DNA of 64,000 nucleotides from a virus. The notes beneath the pieces were generated by a model that searched no databases, had not been told where the DNA came from, and was given only the letters and a program-made list of their open reading frames with translations. This document shows positions 2,973 to 42,512 of the stretch, piece by piece; position 1 is the stretch's first letter; the number at the start of each line of letters is the position of its first letter. Both the position numbers and the translations under genes were made by a program. Location of the stretch: IMG/VR virus record IMGVR_UViG_3300025789_000028, positions 28,060 through 92,059 of that record. One strand, written 5' to 3'.

Positions 2973-3527
2973 ATGAAGATAACTGAAGTATTAATGGAAG
3001 AAACTACCAACAAAAAGCCACACTTGTACCTAGACATGGATGGTGTGCAAGCCGATTTTTTTGGGCGTTGGGCTGAGATTGAGGGTGTGCCTCATTACTC
3101 ACATATCAATGACCACGAAGCAGCCATTGGTAGACTTGCCAAAGCAGGGCCCGAAAAAGTATATGACTTCTTTAAAAACTTAGAACCACTACAAGGTGGA
3201 CTAAAAATCATTAGCTGGTTGCATCAACATCATATTCCTTTTACTGTGTTAAGCGCACCATTAAGAATGGAAGGTGCAGCAAGCATCAAGGGCAAACGTG
3301 AATGGTTGGACAAATACAATCCGGGCACTAGTGGAAATGCAATTTTTACATCAGCCAAATACAAATATGCTACTGACAAAGACGGAAACCCCAATGTGTT
3401 AGTAGACGATTACGGCAAATATCTTAATGCCTGGCGTGATCATGGTGGTATTGCTATCAAGCATGAAGATGGTAATACCGAACATACTATCCGTGAATTA
3501 GAAAAGATTTACCTAAAAGATAAATAA
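2973..3527 (+). CDS. 5'(3')-deoxyribonucleotidase, HAD family
   Basis: YLDMDGV, KREWL and LVDD motifs. Confidence 0.85.
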   Translation: MKITEVLMEETTNKKPHLYLDMDGVQADFFGRWAEIEGVPHYSHINDHEAAIGRLAKAGPEKVYDFFKNLEPLQGGLKIISWLHQHHIPFTVLSAPLRMEGAASIKGKREWLDKYNPGTSGNAIFTSAKYKYATDKDGNPNVLVDDYGKYLNAWRDHGGIAIKHEDGNTEHTIRELEKIYLKDK

Positions 3528-25682: not shown

Positions 25683-26285
25683 TCACATTGTAGGACCGTT
25701 TCCATTCTTAAAGCCCACAGTTCCACCTTCTGCCTCGATGCGCTTGATCACATCCTCAAATAAGATGGGCGTAAAGTCGGTTTGTTCCACGCATACGCAA
25801 TGATAACGTGTGTCAATTTCATCACTATATAAGATAGAACCAGTTTTAGCATCTACACCACGTGCCTTCTTTACACGACCACTGTGTAAGTGACCATGGA
25901 TGTTGACACCAAAACGCCCTAAACTTGCCTCATGTAATGGGATATGACTTAAAATCATACCGTTCATGACATGATAGGCACGTAATTCACGGAAGTGTTC
26001 ACGATATTCCTCATCACGGAAGATATCATGGTTACCGCGGATTAAGACCTTGTCACCGTTTAATCTGTGCAAGATGCTTAATGACTTGCGGTTGATAACA
26101 ACATCGCCTAAGTGATAAACTTTATCGTTAGGCCTAACTCGGTCGTTCCAACGCTTGACCATTTCTTCATCCATTTCATCTGGATCAGTCCATGGCCTAA
26201 TCTTAGTGACTCCGTCACTTTCTGTGAATTTACACACTCCGGCATGACCGAAATGTGTGTCACTTGTTAAAAATACACTTGGCAT
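25683..26285 (-). CDS. calcineurin-like metallophosphoesterase
   Basis: SDTHFGH, LGD, GNHD, HGHLH. Confidence 0.9.
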   Translation of the reverse strand: MPSVFLTSDTHFGHAGVCKFTESDGVTKIRPWTDPDEMDEEMVKRWNDRVRPNDKVYHLGDVVINRKSLSILHRLNGDKVLIRGNHDIFRDEEYREHFRELRAYHVMNGMILSHIPLHEASLGRFGVNIHGHLHSGRVKKARGVDAKTGSILYSDEIDTRYHCVCVEQTDFTPILFEDVIKRIEAEGGTVGFKNGNGPTM

Positions 26286-35863: not shown

Positions 35864-35951
35864 TGGAGGAAGATGTGAGATTCGAACTCACGGGACCTTT
35901 CGGACCTCTAGTTTTCAAGACTAGTGCAATCGACCACTCTGCCAATCTTCC
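35864..35951 (-). tRNA. tRNA-Ser(TGA)
   Basis: loop CTTGAAA; long variable arm; CCA. Confidence 0.93.
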
Positions 35952-35989
35952 GTATACTATATTTAACTATAAAAAATTACATTGTTGAA

Positions 35990-36203
35990 TTTGTAAGTTG
36001 TGCCACCATCGTTATTGACACCATTCACCCGTGTAATTAAGCCGGCCGGGACTCGGTACGTTACTTGGGCTCCATCCAGATGATACTCATTGTATGCCGA
36101 TCCCACTCAAGCGATCAGCCGGGTAACGACCCCGCAACCTTCTACTAACTTAGTCCTTCGAAGAAACCTCATTAGCGTGACTTTACTTGCTAACACTTAC
36201 AAA
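35990..36203 (-). ncRNA. putative structured ncRNA (~214 nt)
   Basis: closing stem TTTGTAAGT/ACTTACAAA; GC-rich internal hairpins; no credible ORF. Confidence 0.6.
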
Positions 36204-36206
36204 ACT

Positions 36207-36299
36207 TGGCGTATGAAGCTGGCCTTGCACCCTGCTATCACCATACCTCACTTTTCAGGAAGGTTTTACTGGCACCATCACTCTTCTGGCTTTCATACA
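36207..36299 (-). ncRNA. tRNA-like element ending in CCA
   Basis: TGTATGAA/TTCATACG stem followed by CCA; degenerate T-arm; no clear anticodon arm. Confidence 0.5.
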
Positions 36300-36305
36300 T
36301 AATAT

Positions 36306-36390
36306 TGGTGGAGATGGTTGGACTTGAACCAACAATGCCAGGGGCGGCTGATTTACAGTCAGCTGGGGTTACCAATTTTCCTACATCTCC
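36306..36390 (-). tRNA. tRNA-Tyr(GTA)
   Basis: loop CTGTAAA; variable arm; CCA. Confidence 0.93.
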
Positions 36391-36454
36391 ATTAATTTGA
36401 ATGGTTATTACTAACTCAAGCAAGGGCGTGTGACCGTTGTACTTGAATTAGAAA

Positions 36455-36518
36455 ACCATATAGAAACACACTATGCCACGCTCTGAACCTGGACTCTTAG
36501 TAATGTGTTTTTATATGG
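36455..36518 (-). repeat. long-stem cassette A
   Basis: CCATATAAAAACACATT...AGTGTGTTTCTATATGG. Confidence 0.85.
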
Positions 36519-36636
36519 CGTATCAACAATGCCGTATGCATCCACCATTGCGTCTGTAATTAGTATCCGAGATTCCGAGCCTCGATATCTATCCCGTAGG
36601 TAGCAGTCCCGTGTATGACTTACTAAAAACTGATAT

Positions 36637-36734
36637 ACCATATAGAAACACACTATGGGATTCGAACCCTTCGTTCAGCATCAGAACTTCAAACCTACCC
36701 ACCTGCTAGTAGGAGTTAATGTGTTTTTATATGG
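36637..36734 (-). repeat. long-stem cassette B with T-loop cargo
   Basis: same stem; cargo includes GGGTTCGAATCCC. Confidence 0.85.
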
Positions 36735-36814
36735 AATCCATTGTGTGTAGGGCATCGAAACCTACATTAAGCCCCATAACGGGCCTTTATTACCACTTAT
36801 AAGAACACGGATTC
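36732..36814 (-). ncRNA. degenerate tRNA-like RNA
   Basis: GAATCCG/TGGATTC stem; D-like loop AGTGGTA; T-like GTAGG-TTTCGATGC-CCTAC; ends CCA. Confidence 0.5.
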
Positions 36815-36862
36815 TTGGGGTCATGACTCCCCAATATGGACAGGTTAATTACTCCTGTTTTT

Positions 36863-36934
36863 ACCATATAGAAACACACTACTCTCTTTATAGTCGAAGC
36901 CCCGGACGCTTCTCGTAATGTGTTTTTATATGGT
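36863..36934 (-). repeat. long-stem cassette C
   Basis: same stem; begins at the CCA of tRNA 36931..37005. Confidence 0.85.
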
Positions 36935-37005
36935 GGTTATAGAAGGTAACGATCCTTCCTATGAGGCTTATGAGACCCCTGCATATCCGTCTATGCTATA
37001 TCACC
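36931..37005 (-). tRNA. tRNA(CAT), non-canonical T-loop
   Basis: loop CTCATAA; T-loop ATCGTTA; CCA. Confidence 0.78.
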
Positions 37006-37009
37006 AAAT

Positions 37010-37087
37010 TGGCTCCCCATCTAGGTGACGCTCCTAGCTAATCTCGGATTAACAGTCCGCCGCCTACACCTAGTTTGCTTAAGGGGA
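37010..37087 (-). tRNA. tRNA-Asn(GTT), non-canonical T-loop
   Basis: loop CTGTTAA; T-loop AGCGTCA; G73; CCA. Confidence 0.82.
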
Positions 37088-37095
37088 ATAAAACT

Positions 37096-37174
37096 TGTTC
37101 GGAGTAGTAGGATTCGAACCTACGACCTCCTTGCTCTTAAAGCAGGTGCACTACCCAGGCTGTGCTACACTCCG
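37096..37174 (-). tRNA. tRNA with Pro-type body and TAA anticodon, no encoded CCA
   Basis: C1-G72, A73; loop TTTAAGA versus TTTGGGA in tRNA-Pro 40266..40343. Confidence 0.75.
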
Positions 37175-37179
37175 AAAAA

Positions 37180-37245
37180 TGGAGCAGTCATTACGATTCC
37201 CACGTAAATGTTAGGTGGACCCCAACACGGTTACTATCCGACTGC
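37180..37245 (-). ncRNA. miniature tRNA-like RNA ending in CCA
   Basis: GCAGTC/GACTGC plus TCCA; arms TGTTGG-GGTCCAC-CTAACA and TTACG-TGGGAAT-CGTAA. Confidence 0.55.
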
Positions 37246-37252
37246 AAAAAGA

Positions 37253-37335
37253 TGGTGCCCCAAGCGAGACTCGAACTCGCACGCCTAAGCACTGGCTTCT
37301 AAGACCAGCGTGTCTACCAATTCCACCATCGGGGC
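37253..37335 (-). tRNA. tRNA-Leu(TAG)
   Basis: loop CTTAGAA; variable arm; CCA. Confidence 0.94.
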
Positions 37336-37342
37336 ATAACTT

Positions 37343-37416
37343 TGGAGCGGGGTAAGAGAATCGAACTCTCAGCATTAGCTTGGAAGGCTAAGGTATTACC
37401 ACTATACGAACCCCGC
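37343..37416 (-). tRNA. tRNA-Gly(TCC)
   Basis: loop CTTCCAA; CCA. Confidence 0.94.
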
Positions 37417-37464
37417 AAAATTGATTATGTATTTATATAGGAGGCTATGCCTCCAAAATTCTTA

Positions 37465-37547
37465 TACCATATAGAAACACACTTGATATAGTAAATTACT
37501 TTATCACGGATGAACCCGAATTTAGTCAAATGTGTTTCTATATGGTA
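37465..37547 (-). repeat. long-stem cassette D
   Basis: TACCATATAGAAACACATTTG...CAAGTGTGTTTCTATATGGTA; begins at the CCA of tRNA-Lys. Confidence 0.85.
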
Positions 37548-37619
37548 GAAGCACAGGGACTTGAACCCTGAACCTACCGGTTAAAAGCCGGTTGCTCTAG
37601 CCAGTTGAGCTATACTTCC
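37543..37619 (-). tRNA. tRNA-Lys(TTT)
   Basis: loop CTTTTAA; CCA. Confidence 0.93.
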
Positions 37620-37625
37620 ATAATA

Positions 37626-37700
37626 TGGTCCCTCCGGTCAGAGTCGAACTGACGCTTGTCGGATTAAGAGTCCGCTATGCTACCATAACATCTCGAAGGG
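37626..37700 (-). tRNA. tRNA-Lys(CTT)
   Basis: loop CTCTTAA; CCA. Confidence 0.85.
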
Positions 37701-37766
37701 ATAGTACGTATTAATTTGTCTTTTACGTGCCATCCCTAGACCATACATGGAAGTCTAAAGATGACA

Positions 37767-37790
37767 CTATCGTTTACCTGAACGTTTCAT
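37767..37790 (-). CDS. 7-codon mini-ORF MKRSGKR followed by a hairpin
   Basis: SD AAGGA; ATG AAA CGT TCA GGT AAA CGA TAG. Confidence 0.45.
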   Translation of the reverse strand: MKRSGKR

Positions 37791-37812
37791 GTCATTTCCT
37801 TTATTAAAAACT

Positions 37813-37889
37813 TGGCGCACCGTAGGGGACTCGAACCCCTGGCCTCAACAGTGACAGTGTTGCGATCTAACCAACTGATCTAACGGTGC
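37813..37889 (-). tRNA. tRNA-Asp(GTC)
   Basis: loop CTGTCAC; G73; CCA. Confidence 0.94.
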
Positions 37890-37897
37890 AAATTCTT

Positions 37898-37972
37898 TGG
37901 TACTGGGTACGGGAATCGAACCCGTCTTACAAACGTGAAAGGCTTGTGTCCTAACCGATAGACGAACCCAGC
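37898..37972 (-). tRNA. tRNA-Glu(TTC)
   Basis: loop CTTTCAC; CCA. Confidence 0.93.
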
Positions 37973-37976
37973 AATT

Positions 37977-38208
37977 AATCACTATATGTAAGTATACTAA
38001 AGGAACCATTGTACATCTATCTCTACCACCAAGTAACGTCTACTTGGGGCCTGTACGGTCATTACATCCTATATTATCCGTCATGCTCGGTCACATATGT
38101 ACTCATGCACTTCATGAACTCTGACTATTGGGCGTAGCCGTCACTACTGTCCCCGCACAAAGCTCCTAACGGTATAGGTAACCTTTATAATACTTACATA
38201 TAGTGATT
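37977..38208 (-). ncRNA. putative ~232 nt ncRNA closed by a 19 bp perfect stem
   Basis: AATCACTATATGTAAGTAT / ATACTTACATATAGTGATT. Confidence 0.65.
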
Positions 38209-38237
38209 GCTTCACAGCAATGTATATGATGGTTTAA

Positions 38238-38305
38238 TTTTTAAAGAACGTTGTTGATTTCTCAACTCATGCTATGATTGTATCACAGCAACGAATTATT
38301 GTCAA
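38238..38305 (-). promoter_or_regulatory. sigma70 promoter + boxB-like hairpin + boxA-like sequence
   Basis: TTGACA-17-TACAAT; GTTGA-GAAA-TCAAC; CGTTCTTTAAAAA. Confidence 0.8.
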
Positions 38306-38310
38306 CCTTT

Positions 38311-38513
38311 TTGTAATGTAGTTTAGGCTGATACCTGATAAATGATAGTAGGATTCGAACCTACACGCTGTTTCCAACAGGGACCGGATATGGCCCCTAT
38401 GTCTACCAATTTCATCATATCAACTCCCTTCTATTCGCTCGGCAAAGCTACTGTCAGGGGTCAAGTTTCAGACTGCTTTCAGATTGCCGTCATCAGCCTA
38501 AACTACACTACAA
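38311..38513 (-). ncRNA. long-stem ncRNA enclosing a tRNA-Leu-like domain
   Basis: 22 bp stem; ATGAAATTGGTAGACAT D-arm; variable arm; GTAGGTTCGAATCCTAC T-arm; no CCA. Confidence 0.7.
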
Positions 38514-38514
38514 A

Positions 38515-38596
38515 ATTTTAAAGAACCTTGTTGAGTAGTACGATCACTTTTCTCAACTCATGAATGTATTATAGCACCGAATCGATTTATTGTCAA
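38515..38596 (-). promoter_or_regulatory. consensus sigma70 promoter + hairpin + boxA-like sequence
   Basis: TTGACA-17-TATAAT; GTTGAG...CTCAAC; GGTTCTTTAAAAT. Confidence 0.8.
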
Positions 38597-38614
38597 ATTC
38601 TTGTTTGTACTACT

Positions 38615-39235
38615 TTATGCTACAAATTCCTCACACTCCTTTAGGGTAGTGATAATTTTCAAATTAGGAATCTGTCTTTTAATCACATCTAATTTTTCTT
38701 TTTGGACCAATACCGCATGCGGATTCTTGGGGTCAAGATACAAGTCCTGAATGGGTAAATAGAAGTCAGGAAAATAGTTATGAGTCTTACCTGATCTGTC
38801 AACCCATTTAATAGGTTCAGTAGGCCTTATCCAAACAACACCTAGACTGTCTAATCTCCTCGCAAGACTTTCTTCCCACGAAGAATCTAATAACACTTGA
38901 GTTCCGTCAACTTGAGTATAATACCTAGTTGATTTGACTAGTCTTCGGTGTCCCGAAGCTAGTGCTTTGTCTCTTATTTTTTCCAAAGATTCAGGAGTAT
39001 GTTTATAGTCTTTTCGGGTACTAGCTTTCCCCTTCATACTAGAAACGATTATTCTTCCTTCATCTTTTGCTTTTACAAACTGATTTCTAGGATTTTTAAT
39101 ACATTCCCTAGCTGAAACTAATTTTTCAGCATATTCAATTCGCTTAGGATTCTCATTACACCATCTACTATGGTTTGCTTTATTAGCAGGTGACAATCCC
39201 TCAAATTCTTTTTTACAATGCTTACATATAAACAT
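38615..39235 (-). CDS. putative homing endonuclease (Zn finger, NUMOD3-like, PD-(D/E)XK)
   Basis: CKHC..H..WC; KHTPESLEKI; SSWE...YFPDFYLP..DLYLDPK; start moved off the tRNA to ATG 39235. Confidence 0.8.
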   Translation of the reverse strand: MFICKHCKKEFEGLSPANKANHSRWCNENPKRIEYAEKLVSARECIKNPRNQFVKAKDEGRIIVSSMKGKASTRKDYKHTPESLEKIRDKALASGHRRLVKSTRYYTQVDGTQVLLDSSWEESLARRLDSLGVVWIRPTEPIKWVDRSGKTHNYFPDFYLPIQDLYLDPKNPHAVLVQKEKLDVIKRQIPNLKIITTLKECEEFVA

Positions 39236-39248
39236 ATATACCCTTAAA

Positions 39249-39324
39249 TGGCGCGACCGGAGAGATTCGAACTCCCGACAGACCGGGTAGAAGCCGGTTA
39301 CTCTATCCACTGAGTTACGGTCGC
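39249..39324 (-). tRNA. tRNA-Arg(TCT)
   Basis: loop CTTCTAC; CCA. Confidence 0.94.
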
Positions 39325-39387: not shown

Positions 39388-39474
39388 TGGTGCCCGGAGC
39401 CGGAATCGAACCGGCACGCTCTTTCAAGCGAGAGATTTTAAGTCTCTTGTGTCTACCTATTTCACCATCCGGGC
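39388..39474 (-). tRNA. tRNA-Leu(TAA)
   Basis: loop CTTAAAA; variable arm; CCA. Confidence 0.95.
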
Positions 39475-39477
39475 TAA

Positions 39478-39546
39478 TTTTTTAAAGAACGTTGTTGATT
39501 TCTCAACTCATGCTATGATTGTAGCACCGACTTGATTTATTGTCAA
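39478..39546 (-). promoter_or_regulatory. sigma70 promoter + boxB-like hairpin + boxA-like sequence
   Basis: TTGACA-17-TACAAT; GTTGA-GAAA-TCAAC; CGTTCTTTAAAAA; near-identical to 38238..38305. Confidence 0.8.
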
Positions 39547-39565
39547 CAACTTTTTAAATTAATTT

Positions 39566-39639
39566 TGGCATCCCCCCAGGGACTCGAACCCCGACCAACA
39601 GTTTTGGAGACTGGTATGCTGCCATTACACTAGGGAGAT
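39566..39639 (-). tRNA. tRNA-Trp(CCA)
   Basis: loop CTCCAAA; G73; CCA. Confidence 0.92.
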
Positions 39640-40673: not shown

Positions 40674-41234
40674 TTAAATCTGTATAATTCTACTATGCTT
40701 TGGAACACCTGATAACAAATAATCCATTTGATCTGCAAGTATAGTGCGGTTCTGTAGGATCATGTTTTCATAGTGATTAGGTGCATAAGGTACATATAGC
40801 AATTCAAGTCGTGCTTCTTTAAGAGTTAGACAACCTTTCTTTTGATTACATACTTTACATGCAGTAACCACGTTTGTCCATTCATCCAAACCACCTTTGA
40901 ATCTAGGCATGATATGATCACGACTTAGATGTGAGAAGTTGGGGAAGTGTCCCCCACAATATGCACAAACATGTCGGTCTCTAGCAAACAATGTTCTGTT
41001 TGTCAATGCCACTTTACTGTGCTTAGTAAGGTTAAATCCTGAACCTCTAACTGCTATAATGCTAGTAGTTTCTAAATAACTATCAACACCATTCTTTTGT
41101 GTTCCACCGTGATATCTTGCAACTGTTTCACCTAAACTCCAGGCTACTTGATTCTTTGCATGATAACAGATGGCTTCATCATAGTTAACCCATGCTCGGG
41201 GTATACCTGATATGTCTAGGGCTAGTACTGCCAT
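40674..41234 (-). CDS. HNH endonuclease (McrA-like)
   Basis: LFARD..CAYCG...DHIMPR..GG..W.NVVTAC..CN..K. Confidence 0.9.
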   Translation of the reverse strand: MAVLALDISGIPRAWVNYDEAICYHAKNQVAWSLGETVARYHGGTQKNGVDSYLETTSIIAVRGSGFNLTKHSKVALTNRTLFARDRHVCAYCGGHFPNFSHLSRDHIMPRFKGGLDEWTNVVTACKVCNQKKGCLTLKEARLELLYVPYAPNHYENMILQNRTILADQMDYLLSGVPKHSRIIQI

Positions 41235-41802: not shown

Positions 41803-41863
41803 ACAAATTAATAAACACTGAATGCCATTCACACTGTCATAGAGTGGGGGCGATTTTCTTCAT

Positions 41864-41954
41864 ATGCTATTCTAAAACACACATAGTCCACTCCAGTCAA
41901 TTGAGTGTGCCGCACAGGCTATTATGTTCATCCATATGTGTTTTAGAATAGCAT
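41864..41954 (-). repeat. long-stem cassette E (variant)
   Basis: ATGCTATTCTAAAACACATATGG / CTATGTGTGTTTTAGAATAGCAT, 23 bp with 2 G-U pairs. Confidence 0.75.
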
Positions 41955-42096
41955 CTTTCGATGCTATGTTAGGGTCAATGCCCCAACCAGTGATTTTACA
42001 GTCTGCGTTATCGCCACAGATTTCATCCTACTGTCCGCCCATTCGATACATTTTGCGCTGTATTCCGGCTCTCGTTGCCTGTTCACGCTAAGTTGC

Positions 42097-42380: not shown

Positions 42381-42457
42381 AGTATGTTTATTTAGTCCTG
42401 GTTAAAAAAATCGTCAATTTAATAGTGTTTTTCTTCACTTTTTCAATCTATGTATGC

Positions 42458-42486
42458 ATTGTAGCGCCACATTGTTTATTTGTCAA
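42458..42486 (-). promoter_or_regulatory. sigma70-type promoter heading the tRNA cluster leader
   Basis: TTGACA-17-TACAAT. Confidence 0.75.
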
Positions 42487-42512
42487 GTGTTTGTTACCCA
42501 ATAAATAAAAAC

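What the first reader, a model, noticed from the sequence alone, without database searches (positions are those of the whole stretch)
36402..37547. Repeated long-stem RNA cassettes with variable cargo, fused to CCA ends
Seen: four copies of CCATATA(A/G)AAACACATT-[cargo]-AGTGTGTTTCTATATGG (36455-36518, 36637-36734, 36863-36934, 37465-37547) and a variant at 41864-41954. The ~17-23 bp stem is conserved, including a U-G pair, while the ~30-65 nt cargo differs entirely. In all four the stem starts with the CCA of the upstream element (two real tRNAs, two other structured RNAs), so that CCA pairs with the cassette's terminal UGG. Further hairpins ending in CCA fill the gaps (36402-36458, 36516-36640). 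Inference: a modular small-RNA expression array (RNase III-type release of guides or decoys), a CCA-masking/processing device, or a tiny mobile element that targets tRNA 3' ends. I recognise no named family.
Basis: partly seen in the sequence, partly recalled or inferred. Interest (0 to 1): 0.85.

Follow-up and report, generated by a model that had tools for sequence, protein, structure and literature searches.

The report
Constant-stem RNA cassettes in phage tRNA operon
Between the tRNA genes of this uncultured T4-like phage lie four small RNA hairpins. They share one almost constant stem, which starts exactly on the CCA end of the RNA before it, but each encloses a different insert. They belong to a large phage-only RNA family that matches no catalogued family and whose job is still unknown.

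Summary
Four cassettes (minus strand; 36455-36518, 36637-36734, 36863-36934, 37465-37547) share a 17-bp stem and have unrelated cargo. A diverged fifth lies at 41863-41955.

This scan has met the same family before on other DNA (six earlier notes). It matches no Rfam family.

What I found here:
- At least 135 copies lie in 88 IMG/VR contigs, always on the tRNA strand.
- The first three bases are the CCA of a tRNA in most copies. In a sample not chosen by stem, 39 of the 40 tRNA-adjacent copies sit at offset 0, most often after tRNA-Lys(UUU), then Gln(UUG) and Glu(UUC).
- The next tRNA often starts on the stem's last GG.
- In that same sample the stem covaries, and wobble pairs favour the tRNA-sense strand. 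So it is an RNA helix, with a recurrent A·C at position 8.
- The 175 distinct cargos fall into 136 families. About 10% imitate a tRNA T-arm. Cargos are swapped between phages whose flanking tRNAs are nearly identical.
- All seven complete host genomes are T4-like.
- A Ro60-like gene sits in many of these tRNA arrays but is not obligatory.

Best reading: these are stem-clamped small RNAs, co-transcribed with the tRNAs and cut out by tRNA-end processing and/or RNase III. Cargo function is unknown. No cleavage or expression data could be obtained.

The parts
37543..37619 (-). tRNA-Lys(UUU). Its 3' CCA (37545-37543) forms the first three bases of cassette 4.
   Evidence: ARAGORN; Rfam tRNA 69 bits; offset 0
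37465..37547 (-). Cassette 4: 22-24 bp closing stem with G-C at position 8, enclosing a 45-nt cargo.
   Evidence: I3; z -7.2; 54.5 bits; cargo homologue in L168
36931..37005 (-). tRNA-Met(CAU). Its CCA starts cassette 3.
   Evidence: (42.6 bits)
36863..36934 (-). Cassette 3: constant stem enclosing a 36-nt cargo that has one 5-bp hairpin.
   Evidence: z -5.7; 57 bits
36735..36863 (-). Non-tRNA RNA module ending in CCA, which is the first CCA of cassette 2. It is conserved in other phage contigs.
   Evidence: 99% in L141, 83% in L082, where it also directly follows a cassette. No tRNA call.
36637..36734 (-). Cassette 2: constant stem enclosing a 63-nt cargo with tRNA-like arms, including a GGGTTCGAATCCC T-arm next to the 3' arm.
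   Evidence: 51.2 bits; T-arm matches to many tRNAs; same cargo in L007 and L097
36519..36637 (-). Non-tRNA spacer module ending in CCA, which is the first CCA of cassette 1.
   Evidence: Sequence. Fold not significant. Partial homologue in L049.
36455..36518 (-). Cassette 1: constant stem enclosing a 29-nt cargo.
   Evidence: 76 bits; cargo 100% identical in L010, L017, L071 and L115, behind different tRNAs
36402..36458 (-). Hairpin ending in AACCA, between cassette 1 and tRNA-Tyr.
   Evidence: z -4.7; homologues in L037, L042, L109
41863..41955 (-). Diverged cassette. It keeps the inner AAAACACA/TGTGTTTT core but has a different outer stem and is not anchored on CCA. It is the first element after a promoter-like site at 42125-42097.
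   Evidence: I5; z -7.7; 28.7 bits, E 1e-4
38277..38305 (-). Nearest consensus sigma-70-type promoter upstream of the cassette region, on the tRNA strand (TTGACA-17-TACAAT).
   Evidence: No terminator-like site between it and the cassettes other than tRNA arms.

Best explanation
The cassettes are small structured RNAs encoded inside the phage's tRNA operon and transcribed with the tRNAs from minus-strand promoters.

Each consists of a nearly constant AU-rich helix of 17-22 bp (the 'clamp') around a variable, independently folded cargo. The clamp's 5' strand begins with the CCA end of the preceding tRNA or CCA-ended RNA. Its 3' strand ends at, or a few bases before, the first nucleotide of the next tRNA.

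Because of that geometry, the ordinary enzymes that make tRNA ends would also release the cassette. RNase P would cut at the next tRNA's 5' end. An endonuclease would cut just after CCA, as RNase E does for E. coli proline tRNAs. RNase III cutting within the long helix is an alternative or an addition. The released product would be a discrete hairpin RNA whose two ends are protected in the stem.

The constant arms, together with the flanking tRNAs, also give enough homology for cargos to be exchanged between co-infecting phages.

Shown: the anatomy, the RNA-level selection, the family's distribution and the cargo exchange. Inferred: co-transcription, which rests on promoter-like sites and strand, with no RNA data. 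Also inferred: release as a small RNA, the enzymes involved, and any cargo function. About one cargo in ten is a tRNA T-arm/acceptor mimic, which suggests decoys or ligands for tRNA-binding proteins.
For: Anatomy:
- Four copies plus a variant.
- All lie on the strand of the 32 tRNAs.
- Consensus promoters occur only on that strand, with no terminators in between.
- No ORF over 70 aa overlaps the region.

Family:
- 135 cassettes in 88 viral contigs, always on the tRNA strand.
- 65 further distinct copies in 80 loci that were chosen by a protein, not by the stem.

Junctions:
- The tRNA's A76 is the third stem base in 39 of 40 tRNA-adjacent copies.
- The next tRNA starts at -1 (shared GG) in 15 of 38 copies and 2-11 nt later in the rest.

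RNA-level selection, measured in the stem-unbiased sample of 61 distinct stems:
- Compensatory pairs are frequent. Position 7: UA 29, AU 24, GC 3. Position 12: CG 44, UA 10, UG 6. Position 16: UG 39, CG 17, UA 5.
- There are 106 G·U pairs against 13 A·C pairs outside position 8.
- Position 8 itself alternates A·C 28, A-U 16, G-C 13.

Cargo is selected and structured:
- In a related stem family that also starts on a tRNA CCA, 21 of 38 pairs show double changes.
- Identical cargos sit in different slots.
- The T-loop motif occurs in 17 of 175 cargos against about 1 expected. In 5 of those 17 it stacks directly on the clamp.

Exchange: 82% of phage pairs whose tRNA-Lys genes are at least 95% identical carry unrelated cargo. 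Conversely, identical cargo sits next to tRNA-Lys genes only 64-68% identical.

Precedent for a single cut right after CCA that removes a hairpin: PMC5291269.
Against: Discrete products, their ends and the responsible nucleases are therefore unproven.

The canonical stem's near-invariant sequence is more than protection or RNase III recognition would need. It hints at a sequence-specific partner that I did not find. No phage protein family I tested is present in all seven complete genomes: DUF7788 1 of 7, PF04308 5 of 7, RNase III 0 of 7, TROVE 0 of 5 tested.

Three 'empty' cassettes with loops of 4-9 nt show that the stem can exist without cargo.

If no endonuclease cuts after CCA, the upstream tRNA would stay blocked.
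Confidence: 0.55

Rival explanations
1. Pure RNase III processing stalk. The helix exists only to let host RNase III separate the neighbouring RNAs of the polycistronic transcript, and the cargo is a tolerated loop.
For: The helix is 17-23 bp long and AU-rich, with one internal mismatch, and lies exactly between mature RNA ends. Empty versions exist. Earlier scan notes reached this reading.
Against: Cargos are conserved between phages, with identical sequence in different slots and covarying helices. The T-arm mimicry is non-random. Tight tRNA-tRNA junctions of 5-10 nt elsewhere in the same arrays need no stalk. The phages encode no RNase III, and cleavage is untested.
Confidence: 0.15
2. CCA-masking regulator. 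By pairing A73-CCA of tRNA-Lys(UUU), Gln(UUG) or Glu(UUC), the stem delays RNase P processing or aminoacylation of these particular tRNAs, or shields their 3' ends, until it is removed.
For: Exact anchoring on CCA. Strong slot bias in the stem-unbiased sample: 14 of 25 tRNA-Lys(ttt) genes and 7 of 31 tRNA-Gln(ttg) genes carry a cassette, against 10% or less for most other types. A second, covarying stem family follows tRNA-Glu(ttc). The 3' UGGU imitates the pairing that RNase P RNA makes with RCCA (my own knowledge).
Against: About 38% of cassettes follow non-tRNA RNAs or nothing recognisable. The variant at 41863-41955, and the copies downstream of the Ro60-like gene, are not anchored on CCA. 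This reading does not explain 136 cargo families.
Confidence: 0.12
3. DNA-level mobile cassette. The arms are terminal inverted repeats recognised by a phage recombinase or endonuclease that inserts cassettes at tRNA 3' ends.
For: The arms are near-invariant while the cargo is unrelated. The same cargo appears in different slots and different cargos in the same slot. Left and right arms differ consistently at two positions. HNH endonuclease genes lie in the arrays. Short palindromic spacers such as CCATATATGG occur between other tRNAs.
Against: G·U exceeds A·C about 8 to 1 outside position 8, and free covariation at position 18 and in diverged stems shows selection on a sense-strand RNA helix. 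I found no transposase, no target duplication beyond the stem itself, and no copies outside tRNA operons. Only one hit turned up in 185,579 prokaryote genomes.
Confidence: 0.1
4. Y-RNA-like scaffold. The constant stem is the binding site of a ring-shaped Ro60-like protein encoded in the same tRNA arrays, and the cargo tethers partners, as bacterial Y RNAs do.
For: A 470-490 aa DUF2828+DUF7788 protein lies within 0.5-8 kb of cassettes in 9 loci. Its model matches the Ro60/TROVE structures 9kop, 9l5y, 2nvo and 1yvr over their full length (E 7e-6 to 1e-3). In 80 loci fetched by this protein every tRNA called is on its strand (64 loci hold three or more), 28 loci hold a canonical cassette, and 72 sense-strand R1 matches were found across the set. 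About 11 loci have a variant cassette about 33 nt after the gene's stop. The architecture of a long 5'-3' stem with a mismatch plus variable modules, some of them tRNA-like, resembles YrlA (PMC4201824).
Against: Only 1 of 7 complete cassette-bearing genomes has the gene, and there is none in this record. TROVE proper is absent. The stem lacks the GNCGAA/CGAA motif. Another conserved RNA that does carry CGAA follows the gene in about 11 loci and is the better Y-RNA candidate. The YrlA model does not hit any cassette.
Confidence: 0.08

Closest known systems
Phage T4 stable RNAs rnaC and rnaD (species 1 and 2) in the T4 tRNA cluster
   Same: Small non-tRNA RNAs co-encoded with tRNAs in a T4-type phage. 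All seven complete cassette-bearing genomes have a gp23-type capsid gene. rnaC has a tRNA-like T-arm and a closing stem. Their function is unknown.
   Different: My stem model finds nothing in the T4 cluster (best 8 bits). T4 has no constant stem, no variable-cargo series and no pairing with the preceding CCA.
RNase III processing stalks (16S/23S rRNA stems; T7 early sites such as R1.1)
   Same: A long helix formed by sequences flanking an RNA inside a polycistronic transcript, sitting at the mature ends of its neighbours.
   Different: Stalks are not sequence-constant across genomes and do not carry an exchangeable library of inserts. Cleavage here is untested, and release is also possible without RNase III.
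tRNA-linked small RNAs released by tRNA processing (murid herpesvirus 68 tRNA-miRNA units; engineered tRNA-gRNA arrays; E. coli proK/proL/proM terminators cut off at CCA by RNase E, PMC5291269)
   Same: A hairpin RNA directly abutting a tRNA 3' end, so that tRNA-end enzymes define its ends.
   Different: Here the CCA is encoded and base-paired into the hairpin, the hairpin stem is constant, and the system is bacterial-viral.
Bacterial and phage Y RNAs (YrlA; Thermus phage phiLo Yrl1/2)
   Same: A 5'-3' closing stem with an internal irregularity plus variable modules, some of which mimic tRNA. They are encoded near Ro60-type genes and tRNAs (PMC4201824, PMC12135203).
   Different: There is no GNCGAA/CGAA motif and no YrlA model hit. 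The Ro60-like gene is absent from most complete genomes that carry cassettes.
GOLLD RNA
   Same: A large phage/lake RNA found next to tRNAs. In L082 a GOLLD copy (202 bits) ends 4 nt before a cassette, so it occupies the same kind of 'module before a clamp' position.
   Different: GOLLD is a single large conserved RNA. The cassettes are short and share only the stem.

Membership tests
Any Rfam 15 family | Covariance-model match at the gathering score | tested here: not met
   The window gives only tRNA hits. An E<=10 search of 35900-38700 gives nothing on the cassettes. Among 20 related loci the listed non-tRNA hits are GOLLD, permuted/alpha tmRNA and one group I intron, and none lies on a cassette. 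150 of 225 matches were listed.
Y RNA / YrlA | Conserved Ro60-binding motif (GNCGAAN0-1G / CGAA) in the 5' part of the closing stem | tested here: not met
   The stem consensus CCAUAUAAAAACACAUU has no such motif. The motif is defined in PMC4201824 and PMC12135203.
Y RNA / YrlA | Encoded next to a Ro60/Rsr gene | tested here: inconclusive
   A Ro60-like gene occurs in 11 of 50 cassette records but in only 1 of 7 complete genomes, and not in this record. 28 of 80 Ro60-like loci hold canonical cassettes.
Y RNA / YrlA | tRNA-like domain | tested here: inconclusive
   Present in cassette 2 and in about 10% of cargos (17 of 175), absent from the rest.
RNase III processing stalk | Uninterrupted or nearly uninterrupted dsRNA of about two helical turns flanking the processed RNA | tested here: met
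   17 constant pairs, plus 1-5 variable inner pairs, plus up to 2 outer pairs. There is one A·C mismatch.
RNase III processing stalk | Cleavage by RNase III | not testable with these tools
   No RNA-end data. No phage RNase III gene in 11 records.
MITE / TIR transposon | Copies share internal sequence, have target-site duplications and have a cognate transposase | tested here: not met
   The interiors are unrelated, falling into 136 families. I saw no duplication beyond the stem and no transposase among the neighbour gene clusters. Selection acts on RNA pairing.
Intrinsic terminator | GC-rich hairpin followed by a U-tract | tested here: not met
   The stems are AU-rich and are followed by UA or by the next tRNA. 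The terminator scan reports none at the cassettes.
T4 rnaC/rnaD | Sequence or structure homology to the T4 RNAs | tested here: not met
   The stem model R1 run over the T4 tRNA cluster gives at best 8.3 bits.

The most novel reading that the evidence does not exclude
The constant stem is a universal 'socket' of T4-like phages: an RNA-level expression, stabilisation and release module. It doubles as a DNA recombination handle, so that a communal pool of well over a hundred small structured RNAs circulates between phages in the way integron cassettes do. Many of these RNAs would be mimics of tRNA parts that act as decoys or ligands against host tRNA-targeting defences. The preference for the slots behind tRNA-Lys(UUU), Gln(UUG) and Glu(UUC), the classic anticodon-nuclease targets, would then be functional.
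Probability: 0.2. Interest if true: 0.9.

Novelty: new variant of a known kind. Interest (0 to 1): 0.74.

Why it matters
Phage tRNA arrays are usually read as codon-usage or anti-defence supplies of tRNAs. This family shows that, in a large group of environmental T4-like phages, the arrays are also operons for many other small RNAs built on one standard chassis.

A constant clamp that starts on a tRNA's CCA and carries a freely exchangeable, structured insert is not in Rfam or in the literature I could search. It gives three things:
- a defined, testable model for how phages express and trade small RNAs;
- a natural counterpart of engineered tRNA-flanked RNA arrays;
- a catalogue of more than 130 candidate RNA effectors whose targets are open, possibly tRNA-binding enzymes or defence nucleases.

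The co-resident Ro60-like gene adds a second, independent lead into phage RNA-repair and quality-control biology.

Tried and rejected
- **Rfam.** I searched the window at gathering scores, the region at E<=10, and 20 related loci. No family fits the cassettes.
- **Cultured phages.** Megablast and blastn against INPHARED found no relative of the region or of a cassette, so no host or literature handle emerged.
- **Prokaryote genomes.** A scan with both arms gave one hit, on a 1.5-kb contig binned with a Ca. Planktophila MAG. This is too little to name a host.
- **Antisense targets.** The four cargos and the variant show complementary runs of 10-13 nt to the phage's 92-kb record. That equals the shuffle mean of 10.4-11.7, so this idea is rejected for the phage's own genes.
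- **Phage-encoded partner.** I tested TROVE, DUF7788/DUF2828, PF04308 (RNase H-like) and RNase III on complete genomes. None is universal.
- **Y-RNA membership.** Rejected on the motif and on co-occurrence.
- **T4 rnaC/rnaD homology.** Rejected.
- **Strand from the window alone.** This cannot be decided, because each strand gives one wobble and one mismatch. It was settled only by the population of stems.
- **A caveat on stem invariance.** My first sample was found with an exact 15-mer, so its stem 'invariance' is partly circular. I therefore repeated the statistics on loci fetched through a protein.
Full report
**What is in the window**

Positions 32-42 kb hold 32 tRNA genes, all on the minus strand. 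Consensus sigma-70-type promoters occur on that strand only: 42486, 42125, 40672, 39546, 38596 and 38305. No ORF longer than 70 aa overlaps 35.9-38.3 kb.

Read on the minus strand, four elements have the form CCAUAUA(A/G)AAACACAUU-cargo-AGUGUGUUUCUAUAUGG. The arm 15-mer occurs eight times exactly. With up to two mismatches there are nine matches, where 0.88 are expected. Each element folds into one long closing stem, with z-scores from -3.8 to -7.2.

The CCA ends of tRNA-Lys(UUU) and tRNA-Met(CAU) are the first three stem bases of cassettes 4 and 3. Cassettes 2 and 1 follow non-tRNA modules that also end in CCA.

The cargos are 29, 63, 36 and 45 nt long and are unrelated to each other. Cargo 2 carries a GGGUUCGAAUCCC T-arm.

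A model built from the stem (R1) recovers the four copies and the diverged copy at 41863-41955, and nothing else in the window. The record is a 92-kb IMG/VR fragment estimated at 26% complete.

**The family**

With up to two mismatches per arm, 135 cassettes (127 distinct) lie in 88 contigs plus the window. Every cassette is on the strand of the local tRNAs.

That sample was selected by the stem itself, so I took a second one. This was 80 loci fetched through a neighbouring protein, in which R1 finds 65 distinct sense-strand cassettes.

- 40 of the 65 directly follow a tRNA, and in 39 of those the tRNA's A76 is stem base 3.
- 14 of the 25 tRNA-Lys(UUU) genes in these loci carry a cassette, as do 7 of 31 Gln(UUG) and 7 of 47 Glu(UUC). 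Other tRNA types rarely do.
- The next tRNA begins on the stem's terminal GG in 15 of 38 cases and 2-11 nt later in the others.
- A direct search for any long hairpin starting on a tRNA CCA also found a second stem family behind tRNA-Glu(UUC). Its sequence varies freely while the pairing is kept. In six aligned members, 21 of 38 pairs show changes on both sides, in the clamp and inside the cargo.

The family looks phage-only. A two-arm pattern hit one 1.5-kb contig among 185,579 prokaryote genomes, and no cultured phage matched. All seven complete genomes that carry cassettes (157-364 kb) encode a T4-type gp23 capsid protein.

**RNA or DNA?**

In the window each strand would give one wobble pair and one mismatch, so the window alone cannot decide. 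The 61 distinct stems of the unbiased sample do decide.

- Many positions switch between Watson-Crick pairs. Position 7: UA 29, AU 24, GC 3. Position 12: CG 44, UA 10, UG 6. Position 14: CG 44, UG 11, UA 5.
- On the tRNA-sense strand there are 106 G·U pairs against 42 A·C pairs, and 29 of those A·C pairs sit at one place, position 8.
- Position 8 is a recurrent A·C (28) that alternates with A-U (16) and G-C (13).

The element is therefore a sense-strand RNA helix under selection, with one deliberate irregularity. In the 15-mer-selected sample, the first pair inside the constant part covaries freely.

**Cargo**

The 175 distinct cargos of 20 nt or more fall into 136 sequence families, of which 106 are singletons. 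They are not junk.

- The window's cargo 1 recurs at 100% identity in four other contigs. In L017 it sits behind tRNA-Glu and in L115 between tRNA-Lys and tRNA-Met.
- Cargos 2 and 4 and the inter-cassette modules also have homologues elsewhere.
- A T-loop motif occurs in 17 cargos, where about 1 is expected. In five of them the T-stem abuts the clamp exactly as it abuts the acceptor stem in a tRNA.
- Three cassettes are empty hairpins.
- No cargo of the window is complementary to the phage's own record beyond chance.
- None of the listed Rfam matches in 20 related loci falls on a cargo.

**Exchange**

Among phage pairs whose tRNA-Lys genes are at least 95% identical, 82% carry unrelated cargo in the cassette behind that tRNA. 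Conversely, identical cargos sit next to tRNA-Lys genes that are only 64-68% identical.

Cassettes therefore move relative to their flanks. The constant arms plus the conserved tRNAs would allow this by homologous recombination. I found no transposase or target duplication.

**Partners**

Clustering the ORFs around cassettes and scanning them against Pfam gave:

| Neighbour | Loci |
|---|---|
| Metallophosphatase (also in the window, 25686-26285) | 26 |
| PF04308 RNase H-like protein | 25 |
| HNH endonuclease | 17 |
| Dual-specificity phosphatase | 12 |
| DUF2828+DUF7788 protein, 470-490 aa | 9 |
| P-loop kinase | 8 |

I folded the DUF2828+DUF7788 protein (mean pLDDT 64). Its best structural matches are Ro60/TROVE proteins over their full length: 9kop and 9l5y from Thermus phage phiLo, Deinococcus Rsr 2nvo and Xenopus Ro 1yvr (E 7e-6 to 1e-3). 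It also has a vWA-type DxSxS motif.

This gene occurs in at least 549 viral contigs. In all 80 fetched loci every tRNA called lies on its strand, and 64 of those loci hold three or more tRNAs.

That made a Y-RNA reading attractive, but it fails the tests.

- Only 1 of 7 complete cassette-bearing genomes has the gene.
- This record has none.
- TROVE proper is absent.
- The stem lacks the CGAA motif that defines Ro60 sites.
- A different conserved RNA that does contain CGAA follows the gene in about 11 loci.
- In about 11 other loci a variant cassette follows the gene, so a facultative link remains possible.

PF04308 is present in 5 of 7 complete genomes. RNase III is in none of the 11 records searched.

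**Mechanism**

The geometry means that two cuts excise the cassette with a 14-bp stem and a one-base 3' overhang. One is RNase P cleavage at the next tRNA. The other is a cut directly after CCA, as documented for E. coli proline tRNAs, whose terminator hairpin is removed by RNase E at the CCA (PMC5291269).

Host RNase III cutting the roughly two-turn helix is an equally ordinary alternative. T4 species 1 RNA is, to my recollection, an RNase III substrate in vitro.

I cannot tell which applies.

I therefore commit to 'stem-clamped small RNAs co-transcribed with tRNAs and released by RNA-end processing; the clamp also serves as an exchange handle' at 0.55. The rivals are pure stalk, CCA masking, DNA mobile element and Y-RNA-like scaffold.

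**Relation to earlier notes**

Six earlier reports of this scan describe the same family on other DNA and likewise found no Rfam match. My independent counts agree with them.

New here are:
- the strand test on a stem-unbiased sample;
- the junction statistics on both sides;
- the slot bias;
- the second covarying stem family;
- the size of the cargo repertoire and the T-arm geometry;
- the T4-type capsid in all complete genomes;
- the Ro60-like neighbour, with a negative membership test for Y RNA.

Noticed in passing
L111:3658-5088 (also L006, L029, L032, L035, L049, L098, L107; L128-L207): A 470-490 aa DUF2828+DUF7788 protein is encoded inside phage tRNA arrays, on the tRNA strand. Its AlphaFold model matches Ro60/TROVE rings plus the vWA domain (9kop, 9l5y, 2nvo, 1yvr). 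It occurs in at least 549 viral contigs. It looks like a divergent phage Ro60 family that Pfam does not link to TROVE.
   Followed up: partly
L199:4309-4420 (similar in L148, L150, L160, L169, L183, L186, L189, L195, L196, L198): A conserved RNA of about 100 nt lies directly downstream of the Ro60-like gene and contains an ACACGAAAUG / AGCGAAAUG (CGAA) element. It is a candidate Y-RNA partner. It has no Rfam match.
   Followed up: partly
L082:2633-3098 and L082:812-1112: A GOLLD RNA (202 bits) lies in a phage tRNA array and ends 4 nt before a constant-stem cassette (3103-3190). A permuted tmRNA (98 bits) sits in the same array.
   Followed up: no
L185:2867-2989, L142:8174-8298, L144:365-486, L152:3784-3906, L172:3347-3469, L180:5705-5831: A second family of stem-closed RNAs starts on the CCA of tRNA-Glu(UUC). 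The closing stem is 18-22 bp with freely covarying sequence, around a conserved cargo of about 85 nt. 21 of 38 pairs show compensatory changes.
   Followed up: partly
window 37977-38208: Another long-stem element with 27-nt arms, 93% complementary, and 178 nt between them. It lies just upstream of tRNA-Glu on the minus strand. A homologue is in L022 (75% over 228 nt). Its stem sequence is unrelated to the cassette stem.
   Followed up: no
window 37006-37096 and 37176-37252: Two further non-tRNA modules lie between tRNAs. The second ends in an acceptor-like stem plus UCCA. Both are conserved (76-89%) in several other phage contigs (L049, L097, L144, L182, L193).
   Followed up: partly
window 38231-38328, 38549-38605, 39472-39569, 42439-42495: A repeated unit of 57-98 nt carries a consensus TTGACA-17-TA(T/C)AAT promoter on the minus strand. 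It subdivides the tRNA array into several transcription units.
   Followed up: partly
window 37430-37437 (minus strand): A TATAAATA motif, the consensus of T4 late promoters (from memory), follows a GGAGGC...GCCTCC hairpin between cassette 4 and tRNA-Gly.
   Followed up: no
window 38309-38515: 43-nt inverted arms (77% complementary) flank an odd 87-nt tRNA-Asp(AUC) call at 38339-38425. That call only just reaches the Rfam tRNA threshold (29.8 bits).
   Followed up: no
window 40674-41234 and 38615-39310: An HNH endonuclease ORF (Pfam E 6e-13), and an ORF with a weak endonuclease I match, sit inside the tRNA array. They are probably homing endonucleases like T4 segB.
   Followed up: no
L208:647-723: This is the only prokaryote-genome hit to the two-arm pattern. 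It lies on a 1478-bp contig binned into a Candidatus Planktophila (freshwater actinobacterial) MAG. It may be a mis-binned phage fragment or a hint at the host.
   Followed up: no
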